Position numbers and translations under genes: made by a program. This document shows positions 1 to 47,590 of a stretch of 47,646 nt of DNA, in pieces. The notes under the pieces are model-generated. The model searched no databases, was not told the origin of the DNA, and saw only the letters and a program-made list of their open reading frames with translations. Each line of letters opens with the position of its first letter. Within the stretch, counting starts at the first letter, position 1. The stretch comes from a virus (taxonomy: Duplodnaviria > Caudoviricetes): IMG/VR virus record IMGVR_UViG_3300030397_000890, positions 1 through 47,646 of that record; one strand, 5' to 3'.

Positions 1-761
1 TTGAGCCTTTGCTTGGAATGAAAAATGCTGAGCTTTCCTATAGGGCCAGATGTTCTGGTGTGTCAAATAAACTAATAAATGTGTTTATATCGCTTGGTCT
101 TAAGGAGAGTCATGAACGTGCTAACGTAACTGCGGCTAAGCTGAAGAAATTGCGTATCGGAAGTGGGAATTTGTCGCTTAAGCAAATAGAGCAAATGCGG
201 GTAATGGATTATGTTGCATATGAAGCAGTTCCTACAAACTCAGTCTTATATAAATGCTTAGTAAAAGTAGCTTCTGATGTTGAGGGCATGACAGTTAAGC
301 GTCTGACTCGATTGTCATTTAATGAACTTAGAATGAAACTGCAAAATAATTCTCATGCTTCAAAAATAAGAAAGTGGTTATCTGATAAAGAGTTGATAGC
401 CTTGCATAATACTGTTGGAAAAAAACGTAATGTTGTCGGTATCAGTCAAGCCAATAAGTCTAAAAGTAGAGTCTACAAAGACCAACCAACTAAGAGTGAT
501 TCAATAAAAGAAGTGAAAGATATCGCAAACGAGCAAAGGCTTTTGAAGATCTTTAAACAAATAGACAAAGCACAGAAAGATACAAAGAAGCAAGAAGAGA
601 CATTAGAGGAAATGCGTGGAATGCAATATAGCCAGCAACGCGATTTGGATGACTTAGAACGTGATATTAGGACTTGTAAGAATCTTATGCTGTTCACACT
701 AACAATAGCCATAGTTACAGCTTTATATTTAATAGTTTCTAATTTGACAGGCTTAGTTTAA
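1..761 (+). CDS. Hypothetical protein with C-terminal coiled coil and TM anchor; probably starts at 47595 across the window junction
   Basis: Open frame from position 3 (gag cct ttg); helical segment KQIDKAQKDTKKQEETLEEM...LDDLERDI, then hydrophobic LMLFTLTIAIVTALYLIV. Confidence 0.75.
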   Translation, partial: EPLLGMKNAELSYRARCSGVSNKLINVFISLGLKESHERANVTAAKLKKLRIGSGNLSLKQIEQMRVMDYVAYEAVPTNSVLYKCLVKVASDVEGMTVKRLTRLSFNELRMKLQNNSHASKIRKWLSDKELIALHNTVGKKRNVVGISQANKSKSRVYKDQPTKSDSIKEVKDIANEQRLLKIFKQIDKAQKDTKKQEETLEEMRGMQYSQQRDLDDLERDIRTCKNLMLFTLTIAIVTALYLIVSNLTGLV

Positions 762-2981: not shown

Positions 2982-3200
2982 TTACTCCTTTATTAGGTCT
3001 GTTGTAGGTTTCCAAGAACTTATTCTTTTAGTTGCATCCTTATAAATAGTGGTAGCTTCATCTAAAAAGTCTACAAAACTCTCACTTGTTTCAGCTCTAT
3101 TAAAGCCATTCCTGAAAGCACATCCTGTTTCTTCCATAGCCTAAGTCAAATTTCTCATTTTTGCATTTACAATTTGCATAAAATATTCTTTAGTCATCAT
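2982..3200 (-). pseudogene. Small ORF (72 codons) interrupted by one in-frame TAG at 3141-3143
   Basis: MMTKEYFMQIVNAKMRNLT*AMEETGCAFRNG...DLIKE*; fills the operon gap exactly, overlaps the ankyrin gene end, GAGG RBS. Confidence 0.5.
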
Positions 3201-4149
3201 TTCGTACTTCCTCAATCTTTAATTGTTTTGCGATTAATTTTTGGGTTACTCTTTGGGCAATTTCTTCTATTTCAACTTCTCTAAGGATTTGTTCTTCGAT
3301 AATTTGTTTTATTTCATCGAAACGGCAGTATCTCGCAAATTTCAACCATTTATCTTTGTCTTGATAAAGGTCGATTCCATTTGCCAATAGAAGCCTTACT
3401 ATAGGTGAATATGAATCAACATCGATGTAACCAAAGTCATCATAAGAACGGCGTGCGTCTGAAATTGTTCTTTCCAGAGCATAACCATTGTCAGAATTTA
3501 CGTCTGCACCTTTTGTAATTAAAAACTCAACAGCTTCTATATGCCCATTGCCGCATGCGTACGCTAAAGCTTTGTCCATGTCTTCTTGTGTAAACTCGTG
3601 TTTATCCAAAAGGTCTATCATTAAGTCTACTTGATTAGCAAGGGCAGCCTTCTCTAGAACTTTATAGTCGGCAGCGAATATATCTATGCCGTTTTCAATT
3701 AGAAATTCTAAGTGATAATATCTATCTGACTTAACTGCCTTGTCTAAAAAATAGGTTGCATATTCATTAATATCAACGCCTCGTTTAATAAGGCACTCAG
3801 CAACATTTAAACTTCCATATGTAATAGCTACTTTTATTGGCAAGTTTCCCGAAAAGGATAAATCAGCGCCATTCCTGAGTAAGTAAGCTGCAACCCATCT
3901 CTGATCAAATTCGGCAGCTACAAGTAAGGCCTTATTCACATCCGTGCCATGATCAATCAAGCGATCTAATATTTTATCTTTCTCCCTCACTTTCCAATCC
4001 ATAACATCTTCAAGTGCACAATTTGGGTCAGCACCTTTTGCTAACGCCTCATCAATACCTTCCAAGTCCGCCTTTTTAACACAAGCAATCAAGTCAACGT
4101 TATATTGCTTCTGCTTTTTCTCCTTTATCTTCCTAAACCAGTTCATCAT
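3190..4149 (-). CDS. Ankyrin-repeat protein
   Basis: Repeated ankyrin-like units: ALAKGADPN, YLLRNGADL, CLIKRGVDIN, FLIENGIDI, ALAYACGNGHIEAVEFLITKGADVN, LLLANGID. Confidence 0.9.
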   Translation of the reverse strand: MMNWFRKIKEKKQKQYNVDLIACVKKADLEGIDEALAKGADPNCALEDVMDWKVREKDKILDRLIDHGTDVNKALLVAAEFDQRWVAAYLLRNGADLSFSGNLPIKVAITYGSLNVAECLIKRGVDINEYATYFLDKAVKSDRYYHLEFLIENGIDIFAADYKVLEKAALANQVDLMIDLLDKHEFTQEDMDKALAYACGNGHIEAVEFLITKGADVNSDNGYALERTISDARRSYDDFGYIDVDSYSPIVRLLLANGIDLYQDKDKWLKFARYCRFDEIKQIIEEQILREVEIEEIAQRVTQKLIAKQLKIEEVRNDD

Positions 4150-4616: not shown

Positions 4617-4758
4617 TAATATAGTTAGTAATTAGATGAAAAAATATCATTTAATATGTAGTTGAAATTGTTGTAGTATTTGACTACCCTTATTGATGGG
4701 CAACTATTCATCCTCCAGATACGTACGGTTGCCCACTATAAACTATAGAAGGGGTAAT

Positions 4759-5157
4759 ATGGCTTTAGAGAAATATAAGTTAAATGGAGAGGACATACAA
4801 AAGCTGGTTTCATATGGATGTAGCATTGTCGAAATAGGTGATTACTTTGGATGTCATGAAACGTTAATACACAAGAAGTATTCAGAATTCATTAAAAAAG
4901 GACGAAGCGACCAGAAGATTAAGCTACGTAAGCTACAATGGGAAGCTGCTAAAAAAGGCAATATTACAATGCTTATTTGGCTAGGCAAGCAGATACTTGG
5001 TCAAAAGGAAAAGGTAGAAACTGAGACGAAGAATGTCAACATTGATGCTAAGGATGATCCAGATATTAAAAAGGATATGATGGATTGGGCAAAGGCCTTT
5101 GTTAAACAAGATAAGAAAGAAAAGAAAAAGGAAGAGACAAAGGTAGATGGCAAATAA
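4759..5157 (+). CDS. Putative terminase small subunit (HTH)
   Basis: GCSIVEIGDYFGCHETLI HTH, then LRKLQWEAAKKGNITMLIWLGKQILGQ, a motif typical of phage TerS-like proteins; GGGGT RBS before ATG 4759. Confidence 0.6.
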   Translation: MALEKYKLNGEDIQKLVSYGCSIVEIGDYFGCHETLIHKKYSEFIKKGRSDQKIKLRKLQWEAAKKGNITMLIWLGKQILGQKEKVETETKNVNIDAKDDPDIKKDMMDWAKAFVKQDKKEKKKEETKVDGK

Positions 5158-5416
5158 GTATGATACCGCAGTAGATAGACTAGAACTTGCTAAGATGCTA
5201 GTTTATTCATTTCGGTATTGTATTAAAAGAACCGGTTACGTTGTAGTAGATTGCGCTAATATGCTAGAAGTATATTGGGATGATATACCTAAGCCATGGA
5301 GGGCGTTAATTAAAAGAGAGATCAATCATGCTTTTGATGACTACGCTATTAACAACAGGCAGGATAAAGACCAGTGGCAACGTGTATTAAAATATGGCTG
5401 TGAACATGAAAATTGA
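5147..5416 (+). CDS. Conserved phage hypothetical protein
   Basis: SFRYCIKRTGYVV...C...W..I pattern; overlaps the upstream stop. Confidence 0.7.
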   Translation: MANKYDTAVDRLELAKMLVYSFRYCIKRTGYVVVDCANMLEVYWDDIPKPWRALIKREINHAFDDYAINNRQDKDQWQRVLKYGCEHEN

Positions 5417-19639: not shown

Positions 19640-19661
19640 GGCAACTCTTAGGGGGTAAATT

Positions 19662-20219
19662 ATGGTACAAGACATACAAGTACAAGAGGTTGAATTTAAC
19701 CTCAAGAAAGCGATAACTTTTCATAAAGATGGTGCATCGCAAGAAACAAAGAAACTATTCTTGCGTGCACCAAGCAATAGTCAAAAAAGACAGTCACGAG
19801 TATTAAAGCAAATATTCACAAGAGCTTTGAATGGAATGACGCAAGGCAGAGGTGACGGAGCCACGCAGGAAGAAACCAGAAAAGAATTTGATGTTGATCG
19901 TTTGAAAGCTGCATTTATTGAAGCCGAAACACCTGCAAAGGAGCAAAAAAAGATTTTAAAAGCCGTAGAAAGTACGGAAGAAAAGGATGCAATGGATGGA
20001 AAGCAAATCATTATGATGCTTTTGATGTCTGATGTTGATTATAACGACGCATTCCCACATTTGAAAAAGCTTTTAACGGGTGGCGCGTGCGAAATAGATG
20101 AGGGTGTGCCGTTAACAGCCTTCCATTACGATCAAATTGACATTGATGACGAGGACAAGTTATTAGGGGAGTACTTGCACAATTTTTTGCTTACATCCCT
20201 GATAGACGACCTGATGTAA
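19662..20219 (+). CDS. Tail assembly chaperone (G)
   Basis: Between tube and tape measure; slippery TTTTTTG near the 3' end. Confidence 0.75.
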   Translation: MVQDIQVQEVEFNLKKAITFHKDGASQETKKLFLRAPSNSQKRQSRVLKQIFTRALNGMTQGRGDGATQEETRKEFDVDRLKAAFIEAETPAKEQKKILKAVESTEEKDAMDGKQIIMMLLMSDVDYNDAFPHLKKLLTGGACEIDEGVPLTAFHYDQIDIDDEDKLLGEYLHNFLLTSLIDDLM

Positions 20220-32188: not shown

Positions 32189-32851
32189 ATGATGGGTATT
32201 TATTTAAGTTGGACAGACTTTAAGAATGAAATAAGCAGCAGAAGCATTATTCCACAGTGGCAATTAGATAGATCGGGATTTTATAGCATTTGTGGCAATG
32301 ATGGGTATATCAAGTTCTTATGTAAGCTTGATAGTGATGATACGGGCAATGCTGATCTAATTGACTTTGAAAATAATTATAAGGATGATTGGAATAAACA
32401 ATTAGAGTTCCATGATAACGGTGGCATGCAGCAGTTTGTTAGTTCGCCAAGACCCCCTGGAATGACTACCTATTATACAAGTAATGGGGACAATTTGGGC
32501 GTTGGCGATGGCAATGAACTTAAATTCCATTTATTAGCTACTGATGCACAGAAACAAGTGGATTTAGTTTTTAATGAAGATGTTTATCTAAAAGATGGAT
32601 TTATTAATACAGAAAATGCCCCCTTTGGTGCAACATTTGAACTTGAAGTTGTTCACCCAATAGCTGGCGTTGTTGGTAGTTTTTGTCGAGCAGTACAGAT
32701 TTATCAAAGTGGACTTACCAATTTTGATAGCGAAGACAAAGCACATTTGCCAGCAGGTATGATGTTAAGAGCTATAGTGAACAACGCGTCTACTGGCGCT
32801 GAATTTAGACTTATTGGCGTAATAGAAATGTTTAGGACAACGACAGTATGA
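32189..32851 (+). CDS. Hypothetical protein
   Basis: 220 aa ORF in operon. Confidence 0.65.
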   Translation: MMGIYLSWTDFKNEISSRSIIPQWQLDRSGFYSICGNDGYIKFLCKLDSDDTGNADLIDFENNYKDDWNKQLEFHDNGGMQQFVSSPRPPGMTTYYTSNGDNLGVGDGNELKFHLLATDAQKQVDLVFNEDVYLKDGFINTENAPFGATFELEVVHPIAGVVGSFCRAVQIYQSGLTNFDSEDKAHLPAGMMLRAIVNNASTGAEFRLIGVIEMFRTTTV

Positions 32852-33384
32852 AGATAGTTATAGGATTTTCTAAACCAAAAAGATTTAAAATAGGTTCGTG
32901 GCTAATAAGGAAATTTGATCGTGTTGAATTTTCCCACGTATATATCCTATTTAAATCAACTTATTTCACGCCAGAAAATCAACTTATCTACCATGCTAGC
33001 GGCACTCAAGTAAATTTCCTTTCGATTGCTAATTTCCATCTAGAGCATCGTACCGTAAAAACCTATGAGTTTGATGTAGATAAGGACATAAAAAAGAAAA
33101 TGGTCAATTATGCAGCTTCCAAGGCAGGAAAGCCCTATGGTTTTGCTCAGCTTCTTGGATTCGTATATATTCGTTTTATGCATATGTTTGGCGTGCAAGC
33201 TAACAACCCATTTGGTGAAAGTGGTTATGTTTGTACTGAGTTGGTTGCAGAGTTACTAAAAAAGAACCTACTTTTGTCTGTAAAAAAGGATACAAATGAC
33301 ATAACATTGCGTGATTTAGATATAATTCTGGGGGATTATGATAGACAAGTTAACACAGAGGGAGCTAGAAGAGCAGATATATAA
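32848..33384 (+). CDS. Permuted papain-like (YiiX/YaeF, NlpC/P60) amidase
   Basis: FSHVYI (His) N-terminal, GKPYG, YVCTELVA (Cys) C-terminal: the permuted catalytic order. Confidence 0.8.
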   Translation: MKIVIGFSKPKRFKIGSWLIRKFDRVEFSHVYILFKSTYFTPENQLIYHASGTQVNFLSIANFHLEHRTVKTYEFDVDKDIKKKMVNYAASKAGKPYGFAQLLGFVYIRFMHMFGVQANNPFGESGYVCTELVAELLKKNLLLSVKKDTNDITLRDLDIILGDYDRQVNTEGARRADI

Positions 33385-43848: not shown

Positions 43849-43876
43849 ATTATAGCACGGATAATATAGTTGTCAA
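43849..43876 (-). promoter_or_regulatory. Strong sigma70 promoter
   Basis: TTGACA-16 bp-TATAAT with extended -10 TG (TGCTATAAT). Confidence 0.75.
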
Positions 43877-44005
43877 TTAGATTTGGCGATACGTTTTAGC
43901 GTATAAGTTCTTGTTATAGGGTGTAAGGTATAAGGGGAGGCAGAAAATAGTGTTAAGGAATATAGGCGCCTCCCCTAGGAGAGTTCATGCTTATCGCATA
44001 AAATT

Positions 44006-44034: not shown

Positions 44035-44080
44035 CTTAAAAGTGTAAAGTTTGTCGTTGCAGGTTATTACAATCAAATAA

Positions 44081-44140
44081 TTGGCCGTAAAGGGCCGCTA
44101 TTTGGCCATTAAAGGGCCATTAATTGGCCACTATTGCCAT
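44081..44140. repeat. Helically phased GGCC repeats
   Basis: GGCC at 44083, 44093, 44104, 44115, 44126, plus TGCC at 44135. Confidence 0.8.
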
Positions 44141-44463
44141 TTTGGAAACAGTTGCTAAAGTTCTATAATTATGTTGTAATGTCCTTACAAAAGTAAGTCC
44201 TTGTTTGTGGGCCTCCGTAGGTTGCTCTTAAATAGCATTCATGGCTTTTTGTTTTAACTGTAAAGAAATTCTTTGCGTTTACTTTTATTTGCAATACATG
44301 TGCAATACAGTTTGAGTGCGGATATTCCCGAACGGTAACAAAGTCGGTGTGTTTGAGTACATCATGGTGTTTTAATCCCGATCGGTGTCATGGGATGTGG
44401 CAACCCTCTGCTCTCTTTCTGTTAGGCTAAAGTTAATTCATTTTCAACCGATAGTGATCGTAT

Positions 44464-44518
44464 AAAAAAGCCGCTCGCTACAGCGCTCAATGGGGTTGCG
44501 CGCTTCACGGCTTTTTTT
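44464..44518. terminator. Bidirectional-type intrinsic terminator
   Basis: AAAAAAGCCG ... CGGCTTTTTTT at the 3' end of 44517..44750. Confidence 0.65.
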
Positions 44519-44750
44519 AATCAACATAAACCCGATGTTCTTCCATTGTCTGCACCATCTTCTCTCTAACCTTTTCAAAGGTATCATAAACAGCAGAATC
44601 ATGCTCACCCCATTTTATCTCCTCTCTAAGGTAACGCAACATATCGCTCAACACTAATTCCATCTTCTTTGCTGCAAGCATGCATTCAAAGTCCAAACGA
44701 TCATCCTTCTCGAAATTATCTAAATCAAATTTTAATATCGCTTGAACCAT
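44517..44750 (-). CDS. Conserved phage hypothetical protein
   Basis: AILKFDL...D...F.....A..M..VL.DM..YLR..IKWG pattern. Confidence 0.75.
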   Translation of the reverse strand: MVQAILKFDLDNFEKDDRLDFECMLAAKKMELVLSDMLRYLREEIKWGEHDSAVYDTFEKVREKMVQTMEEHRVYVD

Positions 44751-44804
44751 CGATTGACAAAACCATCTGTCTATGTTTATCTAATCTTCAATCTTTCTTT
44801 TTAT

Positions 44805-45375
44805 GGAAAAAGCGGGCGCTGAACTGGAAACATCACCCGCTTTAAACTGTCCGTTTCTTAGGTTACAGACACCTTAAATGAAAGTCAAGTTTCCAGTTTT
44901 TTTTAGCGGTGGATTGTAAACACAATAAACCGATGTTGAGTAATACCATGCCTATATGGGGTGCGACCGAGCTGTTGCAGCGGCAATCCATAACAAGGGC
45001 GAAAATACCCATCCGTGCCTGATGTAAAAGGCAACCTATGATGTCAATGCAATGTCATAGGTTATAAAAAACAAACCCAAGCTCTGCTTACCCAGCAACT
45101 TGGTTGGACAGCCAGCAATTACTTTTTTGCTGCAACCAAATGAGTCACTGTCCCCGTCAGTTAGATGGGTGTTTTGCCAGCTCGATAAACGTGGCAATTC
45201 CAGGATCGTCTCAAACGGTGGTAGATAGCCACTAGCGATACATGAGCGGGCACGCAATACTGGAAACATAACTGAGTACTGGAACACCACCAGATGATGT
45301 AATTATTTGAGCTTACATCATCTGTAGTCTAAATCCGATAGATCAGGATAGACTGTCCAGGAAAAGGGGATAACT
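44805..45375 (+). ncRNA. Candidate large structured non-coding RNA
   Basis: More than 10 stems including long-range helices with G-U pairs on the + strand; no credible ORF; TTGACA at 44754 upstream. Confidence 0.6.
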
Positions 45376-45402
45376 GTATCTTTTAATAAGAATCATCATA
45401 AT

Positions 45403-45467
45403 TAAAGAAAACGGCATTATCTTTATATAACGAATATAACGTGTAAAGAAAATGGCATTTCTTTTAC
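45403..45467. repeat. Two imperfect palindromic direct repeats (operator/origin-like)
   Basis: TAAAGAAAACGGCATTATCTTTA (45403) and TAAAGAAAATGGCATTTCTTTTA (45444), with ATATAACG twice between them. Confidence 0.7.
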
Positions 45468-45594
45468 AAGAACTATCAAGTTATAGCTAGTTTAGTCCAA
45501 TTTAACTAAGTTTAATGCATACACCCGATAAGCTACTTCTAGTAGAGGTAGAAAAGTTATGCGAATTTTCAACCAAGAAAACACAAGAATATAA

Positions 45595-45623
45595 TTGACA
45601 GTATGACTGGTGTGCGTTAAAAT
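45595..45623 (+). promoter_or_regulatory. Sigma70 early promoter
   Basis: TTGACA-17 bp-TAAAAT. Confidence 0.8.
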
Positions 45624-46190: not shown

Positions 46191-46598
46191 ATGACTAATA
46201 AACCAACACACATTACCAAAGTAGAGCAAATTAACGACTTTGTTTTATTCACGGACGAAAACGGAAACATTCAGTGCAAACACAAGGAGGAATACATGGA
46301 AGCACAACAATACACATTTGACGATAAAGATAGAAACAAGCCTGTTCTAATTACAAAGGAAAAGGTTGAGGCAATGCGACAAGCTAAAATGCGTTTAAAG
46401 GCACATCAACAGGATAGTTTAACTAAGAGGGGCAGTGAGATGGCAAAGAAAGATGGGCTAGCCAAGTTACTTAACATTCTATTCGTTGTAGCTTTTCTTG
46501 TTGCCTTCTTCTCGATCATTGTATTTGGCTTAAGTGCAGAGTCAAGTGTTGAAGCGATAACTGATGAGCAATTGCTTATGGAATACGGGATCGAATAA
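46191..46598 (+). CDS. Hypothetical protein with C-terminal TM
   Basis: GGAGGA RBS before ATG 46191; LLNILFVVAFLVAFFSIIVFGL. Confidence 0.7.
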   Translation: MTNKPTHITKVEQINDFVLFTDENGNIQCKHKEEYMEAQQYTFDDKDRNKPVLITKEKVEAMRQAKMRLKAHQQDSLTKRGSEMAKKDGLAKLLNILFVVAFLVAFFSIIVFGLSAESSVEAITDEQLLMEYGIE

Positions 46599-46732
46599 AG
46601 TAAAGTTGATCTTGTATAATGCCCCCCACAAATAAGTCGTGAGGGGCTGGGATAAATTCCATTAAAAATGGATGATTTATCCTACATTAATGTAACGACA
46701 TGGTAAATAACTAATTTAAGAAAGGAAAAGTT

Positions 46733-46963: not shown

Positions 46964-47340
46964 TGAATACAGATGAATTAACATTAGGACAAATTAAGCA
47001 GTTACAGTCGCTCTTTGGTGCCAATGATATTGGCAGTACCGATGGGCTTTGTGATCAAGTTGGCAAAAAGGTGCTTGTGCGTACTTATAGTGCAGGTGTT
47101 TGGTTTGGCGTGCTTGAAAAAAAAGCAGGTAACGAAATATATCTAGCTAGCGCTAGGCGATTATGGAGGTGGAAGACCAAGAAAGGTATTTCTATATCAG
47201 AAATAGCTATATACGGCCTTGATCATGAAGGAAGCAAAGTTTGCGAAGCAGAAAAGAATTTAAAATGGTTAGAGGCTATTGAAATTTCTGAGTGTACTGC
47301 TGAGGCCATAGAAAGTATTGAGGATGCACCTAATGCCTAA
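46951..47340 (+). CDS. DUF6948-like phage protein
   Basis: VLVRTYSAGVWFG.L......L..ARRLWRW...SISEIA..G. Confidence 0.75.
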   Translation: MRSIMNTDELTLGQIKQLQSLFGANDIGSTDGLCDQVGKKVLVRTYSAGVWFGVLEKKAGNEIYLASARRLWRWKTKKGISISEIAIYGLDHEGSKVCEAEKNLKWLEAIEISECTAEAIESIEDAPNA

Positions 47341-47590
47341 GTTAGAAGAATATATAGGTAAAAATATTGGCTATGGCGATGGCGATGGCTATGGCTATGG
47401 CGATGGCGATGGCTATGGCTATGGCGATGGCTATGGCGATGGCTATGGCGATGGCTCTGGCGATGGCTCTGGCGATGGCTCTGGCGGTGGCGATGGCGAT
47501 GGCTATGGCTATGGCGATGGCTCTGGCGATGGCTATGGCGATGGCTCTGGCGATGGCTCTGGCGATGGCTCTGGCGGTGGCTGTTGTTAA
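47333..47590 (+). CDS. Gly-rich repeat protein (G-D/Y/S)n
   Basis: GAGGA RBS before ATG 47333; hexamer repeats GGCGAT/GGCTAT/GGCTCT 47369-47582. Confidence 0.7.
   Translation: MPKLEEYIGKNIGYGDGDGYGYGDGDGYGYGDGYGDGYGDGSGDGSGDGSGGGDGDGYGYGDGSGDGYGDGSGDGSGDGSGGGCC

What the first reader, a model, noticed from the sequence alone, without database searches (positions are those of the whole stretch)
44805..45375. Candidate ~570-nt highly structured ncRNA in a phage with no visible replication genes
Stems read directly: GTGGATTGT 44909-17/GCAATCCAT 44983-91; GGCGAAAATACCCATC 44998-45013/GATGGGTGTTTTGCC 45164-78 (long range), enclosing TGCCT/AGGCA, AACCTATGATGT/ATGTCATAGGTT (45033-63), CCAAG/CTTGG and CAGCAA/TTGCTG. 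Possible pseudoknots: CGAGCTG 44968-74/CAGCTCG 45178-84 and GGACAG 45106-11/CTGTCC 45148-53. Further stems: TTCCAG 45198-203/CTGGAA 45260-65 enclosing ATCGT/GCGAT and GGTGGT/GCCACT; CAGATGATGTAA/TTACATCATCTG (45291-324); TAGTCTA/TAGACTG. Non-Watson-Crick pairs are repeatedly G-U on the + strand, indicating selection on a + strand RNA. TTGACA lies at 44754. I do not recognise the family. It could be a new large phage RNA, or a ColE1 RNAII-like replication primer, given its size, the downstream AT-rich repeats and the lack of an initiator.
Basis: partly seen in the sequence, partly recalled or inferred. Interest (0 to 1): 0.85.

Follow-up and report, generated by a model that had tools for sequence, protein, structure and literature searches.

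The report
Orphan sense/antisense RNA switch in phage
A gene-free 570-base stretch of an uncultured aquatic phage is predicted to fold better than chance, matches no catalogued RNA family and has no relative in the collections searched; it likely makes a long RNA plus a short opposite-strand switch RNA, a layout that would fit a protein-free replication origin, but neither the transcripts nor that role have been tested.

Summary
The stems are at the stated coordinates, the region is non-coding, and it folds better than shuffles (z -4.2; stronger than 50 of 51 same-size genome windows). No Rfam family matches and no homolog was found, so covariation is untested.

The first ~100 nt (44800-44905) favour the minus strand (1 of 300 shuffles as lopsided). 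There a 77-nt rod competes with a terminator hairpin just above a 77-codon gene with gene-like codon use. The body (44905-45360) leans only weakly to the plus strand (2 of 60). One 'pseudoknot' is an ordinary nested stem, and three named stems have low predicted probability.

Best reading (0.35): a long plus-strand RNA with an antisense partner at its 5' end, acting as an RNA-based origin, like ColE1/MRB plasmids or phage c2. No initiator gene is visible and the element sits between divergent early promoters. Against this: no sequence likeness to those origins, no G5 run, weak promoters, an antisense fold unlike RNA I, and an 89%-complete record. Rivals: a stand-alone large RNA, an attenuator for the small gene, or terminators plus chance.

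The parts
44517..44750 (-). 77-codon ORF directly below the minus-strand terminator/antiterminator; likely a real gene, function unknown
   Evidence: Codon-use score +0.22, highest of 12 ORFs scored; no PHROG or Pfam family; only itself among 2 candidates in the protein collection; no match in annotated phages; weak Shine-Dalgarno (-3.2 kcal/mol)
44460..44516 (.). Hairpins flanked by A6 and T7 runs, likely a bidirectional terminator closing the 77-codon gene
   Evidence: Read from the sequence; one arm listed as a minus-strand terminator at 44484-44470
44754..44783 (+). Candidate promoter TTGACA-18-TATCTA; predicted start near 44790
   Evidence: Loose scan, 6 of 6 and 3 of 6; not listed by the standard scan; untested
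44790..45375 (+). Predicted long non-coding RNA (about 585 nt) with no intrinsic terminator at its 3' end
   Evidence: z -4.19 for 44805-45375, -4.44 for 44905-45360; plus-strand preference weak, 2 of 60 shuffles; ends inferred
44803..44906 (-). Predicted ~100-nt antisense or leader RNA that switches between a 77-nt rod and a terminator
   Evidence: z -3.58 on - against -1.26 on +; -10 box TACAAT at 44918-44913 with a poor -35; terminator p 0.02 free, 1.00 when 44906-44880 is covered
44807..44843 (-). Terminator-like hairpin (10 bp, one G-U on -) followed by U5
   Evidence: -15.8 kcal/mol on - against -11.8 on +; strongest minus-strand helix; not listed by the terminator scan
44822..44898 (-). 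77-nt imperfect rod with a 10-nt loop; on + it is followed by U8 (44897-44904)
   Evidence: -30.0 against -18.2 kcal/mol; z -5.5 on -, limits chosen after seeing the fold
44860..44888 (-). Second candidate minus-strand promoter TTGACT-17-TAACCT; predicted start near 44853
   Evidence: Loose scan, 5 of 6 and 3 of 6; untested
44998..45178 (+). Core multibranch domain: long-range stem 45002-13/45164-75 enclosing hairpins 45017-32, 45033-63, 45077-103 and 45106-53
   Evidence: Pair probabilities 0.92-1.00 for four of five stems watched, 0.51 for GGACAG/CTGTCC, unchanged when the 5' part is blocked
45244..45291 (+). Repeat of the 5' switch sequence (ACTGGAAAC at 45259, partial copy at 45278); predicted to pair with 44889-44897 across 360 nt
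   Evidence: 3 exact copies of the 9-mer in the genome, all here, 0.27 expected, motif picked after seeing it; long-range pair p 0.89; as a gapped local alignment not significant, 83 of 1000 shuffles
45291..45355 (+). Two adjacent 3' hairpins (12 bp and 7 bp)
   Evidence: p 1.00 and 0.98; no strand preference
45377..45468 (.). AT-rich 41-nt tandem repeat with palindromic TAAAGA...TCTTT sites; holds a minus-strand -10-like TATGAT (45400-45395)
   Evidence: Repeat D1, 71% identity; exact palindrome at 45403-45425, genome-wide count not above shuffles; -10 box read by eye
45595..45623 (+). Strong rightward promoter TTGACA-17-TAAAAT; its leftward counterpart TTGACA-16-TATAAT is at 43876-43849
   Evidence: 11 of 12 and 12 of 12 consensus matches

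Best explanation
The element is likely a two-RNA control module that would serve as a protein-free replication origin: a long plus-strand RNA (about 44790-45375) predicted to act as primer or origin-opening transcript, and a ~100-nt minus-strand RNA predicted to overlap its 5' end and regulate it. Shown by sequence and computation: the region is non-coding, folds better than chance, changes its preferred strand near 44905, and lies between two strong divergent promoters, upstream of AT-rich repeats. Inferred: transcription from TTGACA (44754) gives an RNA whose 5' part pairs with a repeat at 45259-45267. The RNA has no terminator and would run into the AT-rich repeats as an R-loop that host enzymes could use. 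Pairing with the antisense RNA would remove the long-range closure. The same pairing would turn the minus-strand rod into a terminator and silence the 77-codon gene. It would work like ColE1/MRB or phage c2 origins without being a member of those families.
For: Strand preference flips: left part minus, 1 of 300 shuffles; body plus, 2 of 60. An A-run plus hairpin opens the long RNA and a -10 box lies ~100 nt inside it on the other strand, the layout seen in the six fetched RNA-controlled origins and described in PMC3035462 and PMC8683028. Size matches ColE1 RNA II, ~550 nt. 5'-3' long-range pairing 29.1 expected pairs against 14.5+-7.5, 2 of 40 shuffles. No initiator, primase, helicase or polymerase among 72 ORFs, and none among 54 of about 100 ORFs scanned in the closest long relative G003. 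Position between divergent gene blocks, with a second same-direction promoter after it, resembles the phage c2 origin. Failure to match ColE1 is weak evidence: ColE1 itself finds only 1 of 5 other fetched RNA-controlled origins.
Against: No sequence or model match to six plasmid origins or the c2 origin. The antisense RNA from 44906 is predicted to be one rod that hides its terminator (p 0.02-0.04), whereas all 6 reference RNA I regions keep the terminator hairpin in their best fold. No G5 run and no DnaA box within one mismatch in 43.8-45.7 kb. Both inner promoters are weak. On + the rod plus U8 could stop the transcript at 44904 (rod p 0.96). Blocking the 5' part leaves the core stems unchanged and does not restore TTCCAG/CTGGAA. 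The record is 89% complete, and relative G004 carries a primase. G003 has no gap over 477 nt and no match. No homolog, covariation or RNA data.
Confidence: 0.35

Rival explanations
1. A stand-alone large structured phage RNA unrelated to replication (in the manner of ROOL or GOLLD). One self-consistent version is on the minus strand: it would start near 45388, below TATGAT, and end at the terminator at 44803, with the 45259-67/44889-97 pairing freeing that terminator.
For: In a minus transcript from 45388 the long-range helix forms first and the terminator then has p 0.96-0.98. Whole-region z is -3.52 on minus. The two halves of the body show no significant strand preference on their own (18 of 80 and 65 of 150 shuffles). 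Size is in the ROOL range (recalled).
Against: The body folds better on + (z -4.44 against -2.69). The long-range core stem has p 0.99 on + but 0.2-0.3 on -. The minus promoter has a poor -35. No Rfam match at E up to 10.
Confidence: 0.25
2. An antisense-controlled transcription attenuator (pT181/pIP501-like logic) or immunity-type RNA circuit for the 77-codon gene. The minus leader from 44906 folds as an antiterminator rod. The plus-strand RNA, or the upstream repeat in cis, would cover its 5' arm so that the terminator forms.
For: Terminator p goes from 0.02 to 1.00 when 44906-44880 is covered. The gene looks real, has its own downstream terminator, and the loose scan found no promoter between the terminator and its start. 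The mechanism is described in PMC2879508 (passages).
Against: It explains only the left 100 nt, not the 450-nt folded body. A plus RNA from 44790 would also cover the terminator itself. The gene has no known family. This reading can coexist with the best explanation.
Confidence: 0.2
3. No single RNA: an intergenic spacer holding terminators, operator repeats and hairpins that act as DNA (origin, packaging or recombination signals), with the rest of the pairing by chance.
For: 9 of 438 strand-windows of 109 nt reach z -3.5 and 17 of 219 windows show as large a strand difference. One ordinary 456-nt window with a strong terminator scores better. Helix count in the body is not above shuffles. No homolog anywhere searched. 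G-T bias does not separate RNA from single-stranded DNA.
Against: 450 nt of relatively GC-rich non-coding sequence with seven stems at p above 0.9, one spanning 170 nt; 0 of 100 shuffles fold as well; U-runs follow the hairpins.
Confidence: 0.2

Closest known systems
ColE1-family origin (RNA II pre-primer ~550 nt, antisense RNA I ~100 nt)
   Same: Predicted sizes; antisense partner over the 5' 100 nt; A-run plus hairpin at the start of the long RNA; no initiator seen
   Different: No sequence likeness; no G5 run; antisense best fold is one rod, not three stem-loops ending in a terminator; found in a tailed phage record
MRB (marine RNA-based) replicons of Vibrionaceae (PMC3035462)
   Same: ORF-free ~500-nt region, inverted repeat flanked by A and T runs, weak promoter for the long RNA; the terminator form of the antisense RNA has two stem-loops
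   Different: No match to pPHDP10, pES213 or pSDH-2; the two-stem-loop form is 4.2 kcal/mol above the rod; MRB is reported only from Vibrionaceae plasmids
Lactococcal Ceduovirus (phage c2) origin with non-coding transcript PE1-T (PMC7150918)
   Same: Non-coding stretch between divergent gene blocks, flanked by two same-direction promoters; a lytic-phage precedent that supports replication without phage proteins
   Different: No sequence match (E 2.2); c2 promoters are about 360 nt apart against 840 here; the passages read mention no antisense RNA
Non-RepA cluster A mycobacteriophage prophage origins (PMC7157519)
   Same: A phage non-coding RNA required for replication without an initiator
   Different: Those lie beside parABS; no ParA/ParB family was found here; sequences not compared
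Antisense transcription attenuators of pT181/pIP501 (as cited in PMC2879508)
   Same: Predicted antiterminator/terminator switch in a leader above a gene, flipped by covering the 5' arm
   Different: The controlled gene is a 77-aa orphan, not a Rep protein; the antisense would cover the terminator too; a 450-nt folded body is attached
ROOL, GOLLD, OLE large bacterial/phage RNAs
   Same: Size class and many stems; phage association (recalled; PMC12286853 seen as listing and abstract start only)
   Different: No Rfam match at gathering score or at E up to 10

Membership tests
ColE1-type RNA-primed origin | Sequence homology to RNA I/RNA II of known members | tested here: inconclusive
   Best nhmmer E 6.1 against six origins; Rfam silent; but ColE1 detects only 1 of 5 other fetched origins by the same method
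ColE1-type RNA-primed origin | Short antisense RNA overlapping the 5' end of a ~550-nt RNA | tested here: inconclusive
   Strand flip and sizes fit; promoters weak; no RNA data
ColE1-type RNA-primed origin | RNA I folds into 2-3 separate stem-loops ending in its terminator | tested here: not met
   Rod wins by 4.2 kcal/mol, terminator p 0.02-0.04; 6 of 6 references keep the terminator hairpin
ColE1-type RNA-primed origin | G-rich runs in RNA II for the persistent RNA-DNA hybrid (feature recalled; G5-G6 runs visible in the fetched ColE1 and MRB origins) | tested here: not met
   No G5 in 43.8-45.7 kb; only G4 at 44958 and 45366
ColE1-type RNA-primed origin | No replicon-encoded initiator protein | tested here: inconclusive
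   None among 72 ORFs; record 89% complete; many ORFs have no family
ColE1-type RNA-primed origin | Replication depends on Pol I and RNase H | not testable with these tools
   Needs a replicon assay
MRB replicon | Conserved ~110-bp RNA I region | tested here: not met
   The three MRB-type records match each other at E 1e-12 to 1e-50 but not the window; model R2 best E 2.2
Ceduovirus origin | One of three conserved ori sequence types between PE1 and PE2 | tested here: not met
   c2 type only was compared: E 2.2; bIL67 and 923 types not compared
ROOL / GOLLD / OLE / HEARO, group I and II introns, RNase P, C4 and other Rfam families | Covariance-model match | tested here: not met
   0 of 4227 families at gathering score; best E 0.58 (a snoRNA) for 44740-45420
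tRNA / tmRNA | ARAGORN call | tested here: not met
   0 genes
Type I toxin-antitoxin locus | Short hydrophobic ORF with a sequestered Shine-Dalgarno inside the long RNA | tested here: not met
   12 ORFs of 20 aa or more overlap the element; none read as a hydrophobic peptide with a good Shine-Dalgarno; five scored for codon use are not gene-like
Conserved structured RNA (any) | Covariation among homologs | not testable with these tools
   No homolog found; the three runs holding it show no variants

The most novel reading that the evidence does not exclude
A tailed phage, probably of an alphaproteobacterium, starts replication from a protein-free origin of a new family. One 9-nt motif used three times couples the fold of a ~585-nt primer RNA, an antisense rod/terminator switch and the expression of a neighbouring small gene.
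Probability: 0.25. Interest if true: 0.8.

Novelty: new variant of a known kind. Interest (0 to 1): 0.5.

Why it matters
Few RNA-based, initiator-free origins are described (ColE1, MRB, Ceduovirus, some mycobacteriophage prophages). Many metagenomic phages show no replication gene; a sequence-unrelated RNA origin would explain some and give a cloneable replicon to test. If it is instead a stand-alone RNA, it is a new large phage RNA outside Rfam. Value today is limited because it is a singleton with no host, homolog or transcript.

Tried and rejected
Homolog searches that found nothing. blastn against 50,697 phages and 72,556 plasmids: only short matches, best E 0.06-0.07. Four DNA-pattern scans of viral contigs gave 81, 15, 42 and 86 loci; none extended beyond the seed. 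Single-protein scans with three genes found no relative. A portal alignment gave 80 viral, 80 metagenome and 25 genome loci. nhmmer over the 160 viral and metagenome loci had best E 0.16. Model R1 (241 of the ~570 nt, one sequence, so weak) found 0 of 50 records (46 of the 76 remaining viral loci and 4 of the 25 genome loci were given) and 1 of 151 genomes of one order, which was the antisense of a peroxiredoxin-like ORF and was dropped. blastn of 401 genomes of that class: 0. Weak clustered hits in G003 and G004 lay in coding genes.

Reads. No RNA holder listed; this says nothing about expression. An apparent 3-4-fold depth step and two graph branches near the element were dropped because depth ranges from 155 to 2081 and branches are common in 1-20 kb.

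Other readings. Group I and II intron, RNase P and tmRNA were considered by eye from recalled motifs and dropped after Rfam and ARAGORN. The 84-codon minus ORF inside the element has no family or match and neutral codon use. Atlas look-ups of two orphan ORFs as possible initiators gave nothing usable. A 10-nt likeness to ColE1 near 45368 and one at 44802 are within chance (E 9). One search had an offset error and was redone.

Full report
Setting. The window is a whole linear virus record, estimated 89% complete. It encodes a head with maturation protease, a contractile tail, terminase, portal, an Erf-like annealing protein, an SSB-like protein, RusA, two HTH proteins and a holin. No polymerase, primase, helicase, initiator, integrase or partition family appeared among 72 ORFs in PHROGs or 30 in Pfam. 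It is held by three aquatic DNA runs of one study, which may be its source. The host is unknown. Portal relatives at 31-35% in Rickettsiales and other alphaproteobacterial bins and a CtrA-like box (consensus recalled) hint weakly at an alphaproteobacterium. The finding lies in a 1.7-kb stretch between a leftward promoter at 43876 (12 of 12) and a rightward one at 45595 (11 of 12).

Is the structure real? 44805-45375 folds at z -4.19 (+) and -3.52 (-), with 0 of 100 shuffles as stable. Strong helices number 13 against 6.2+-2.8, more than in any of 83 genome windows (maximum 10), but the body alone (44905-45360) has 6 against 4.1+-1.7. By MFE excess the body beats 50 of 51 background windows; the exception covers the terminator after the capsid gene. 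At 150 nt it does not stand out, so the signal comes from longer-range pairing. Five ORFs inside it have non-gene-like codon use, while the 77-codon ORF at 44750-44517 scores highest of 12. Seven stems keep p above 0.9. GGACAG/CTGTCC is nested (p 0.51).

Two strands, not one. 44800-44908 folds at z -3.58 on minus and -1.26 on plus; 1 of 300 shuffles is as lopsided. As a caution, 17 of 219 genome windows show a similar z difference. The body leans to plus (z -4.44 against -2.69; 2 of 60 shuffles), but its two halves do not on their own, and an unbiased wobble count was 4 against 2. On minus, a 77-nt rod (44898-44822) competes with a 10-bp hairpin plus U5 (44843-44807); the rod wins by 4.2 kcal/mol. 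A -10 box TACAAT sits at 44918 with a poor -35, a second candidate promoter at 44888, and on plus TTGACA is followed at 18 nt by TATCTA. One 9-mer occurs three times in the genome, all here (chosen after the fact). It lets 44889-97 pair either with 44823-31 or with 45259-67. In a full plus transcript the long-range form wins (p 0.89), and 5'-3' pairing exceeds 38 of 40 shuffles. In a short minus leader the rod hides the terminator (p 0.02) until its 5' arm is covered (p 1.00). In a full minus transcript from 45388 the terminator forms (p 0.96). All of this is equilibrium prediction on one sequence.

Homologs. None was found in annotated phages and plasmids, in four pattern scans (with 42, 53, 68, 109, 110), around portal relatives or in samples of 151 and 401 bacterial genomes. 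The phage has no close kin: best portal 66%, best Erf 56%. The three runs show no variants. Covariation is therefore untested, and these searches would miss a diverged family.

Mechanism. I favour an RNA-based origin (0.35). The layout of a long RNA with an antisense partner over its first 100 nt, opening with an A-run and hairpin, is that of ColE1 and MRB origins (PMC3035462, parts 2-4 of 6 read; PMC8683028, passages and supplement search hits; PMC12966454, passages). The position resembles the phage c2 origin (PMC7150918, passages), and RNA-dependent prophage origins exist (PMC7157519, passages). The closest long relative also shows no initiator in 54 of about 100 ORFs scanned, though it is 70% complete and lacks the element, and another relative has a primase. 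Against: no sequence likeness to six plasmid origins or c2, softened by ColE1 finding only 1 of 5 of its analogues. The antisense fold is unlike all 6 reference RNA I regions. There is no G5 run or DnaA box, and plus transcription could stop at the U8 at 44904. It therefore fails membership of ColE1 and MRB but may work like them. Priming, R-loop formation and copy control are inferred.

Rivals. A stand-alone large RNA (0.25), possibly on minus from 45388 to the terminator. An antisense attenuator for the 77-codon gene (0.2; mechanism as in PMC2879508, passages), which can coexist with the origin reading. Terminators, operators and chance (0.2).

Novelty. No match among 4227 Rfam families. Seven literature searches used general terms and returned no description that I could tie to this element. 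The library lacks most subscription papers, and the candidate list of PMC10690425 (listing only) was not compared. Earlier scan notes report similar sense/antisense layouts in other phages; they are unchecked AI notes, no look-alike sequence was found, and my reading predates them. Verdict: a probably real, orphan, two-strand RNA module; new variant of a known kind; interest 0.5.

Noticed in passing
window 44069-44140: GGCC-centred repeats at about 11-bp spacing (22-nt direct repeat) overlapping a CtrA-like TTAA-N7-TTAA palindrome (44109-44123; 1 of 3 sites in the genome) and an IHF-like site at 44071 (consensus recalled). Could be a protein-bound origin, packaging or operator site in the same intergenic gap.
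   Followed up: partly
window 43871-43883 and 45588-45600: The two strong divergent promoters share the upstream element AATxTAATTGACA, 12 of 13, suggesting common control.
   Followed up: no
window 32189-33384 and 4693-5157: The ORF that reads like a small terminase subunit (4693-5157; by eye, no family hit) lies far from terL (33338); the ORF before terL has a weak C92 peptidase hit. The capsid genes are also separated from portal.
   Followed up: no
window 3190-4149; G003: An ankyrin-repeat protein here and three in relative G003, a hint of a host associated with eukaryotes.
   Followed up: no
G003 (L314-L316): The closest long relative shares the structural genes at 40-57% but scatters them on both strands among small orphan ORFs, and has an intein/HNH-like ORF.
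   Followed up: partly
window 19651-19800, 5101-5250, 46501-46650: Other locally strong folding windows (z -8.7, -7.2, -6.4 with only 9 shuffles); the first lies at the start of the ORF after the tail tube candidate.
   Followed up: no
window 47318-47590: Gly-Tyr-Gly-Asp-type repeat ORF directly after a DUF6948 gene.
   Followed up: no
window 203-572: One X3 contig skips 368 nt inside the first ORF; side only 29 letters, may be an artefact.
   Followed up: no
L307 640-815 (G004): Intergenic stretch with a repeated TTGACAG(T/C)CGGAAAGACG motif and a tRNA-like segment upstream of a thyX-like gene (by eye).
   Followed up: no
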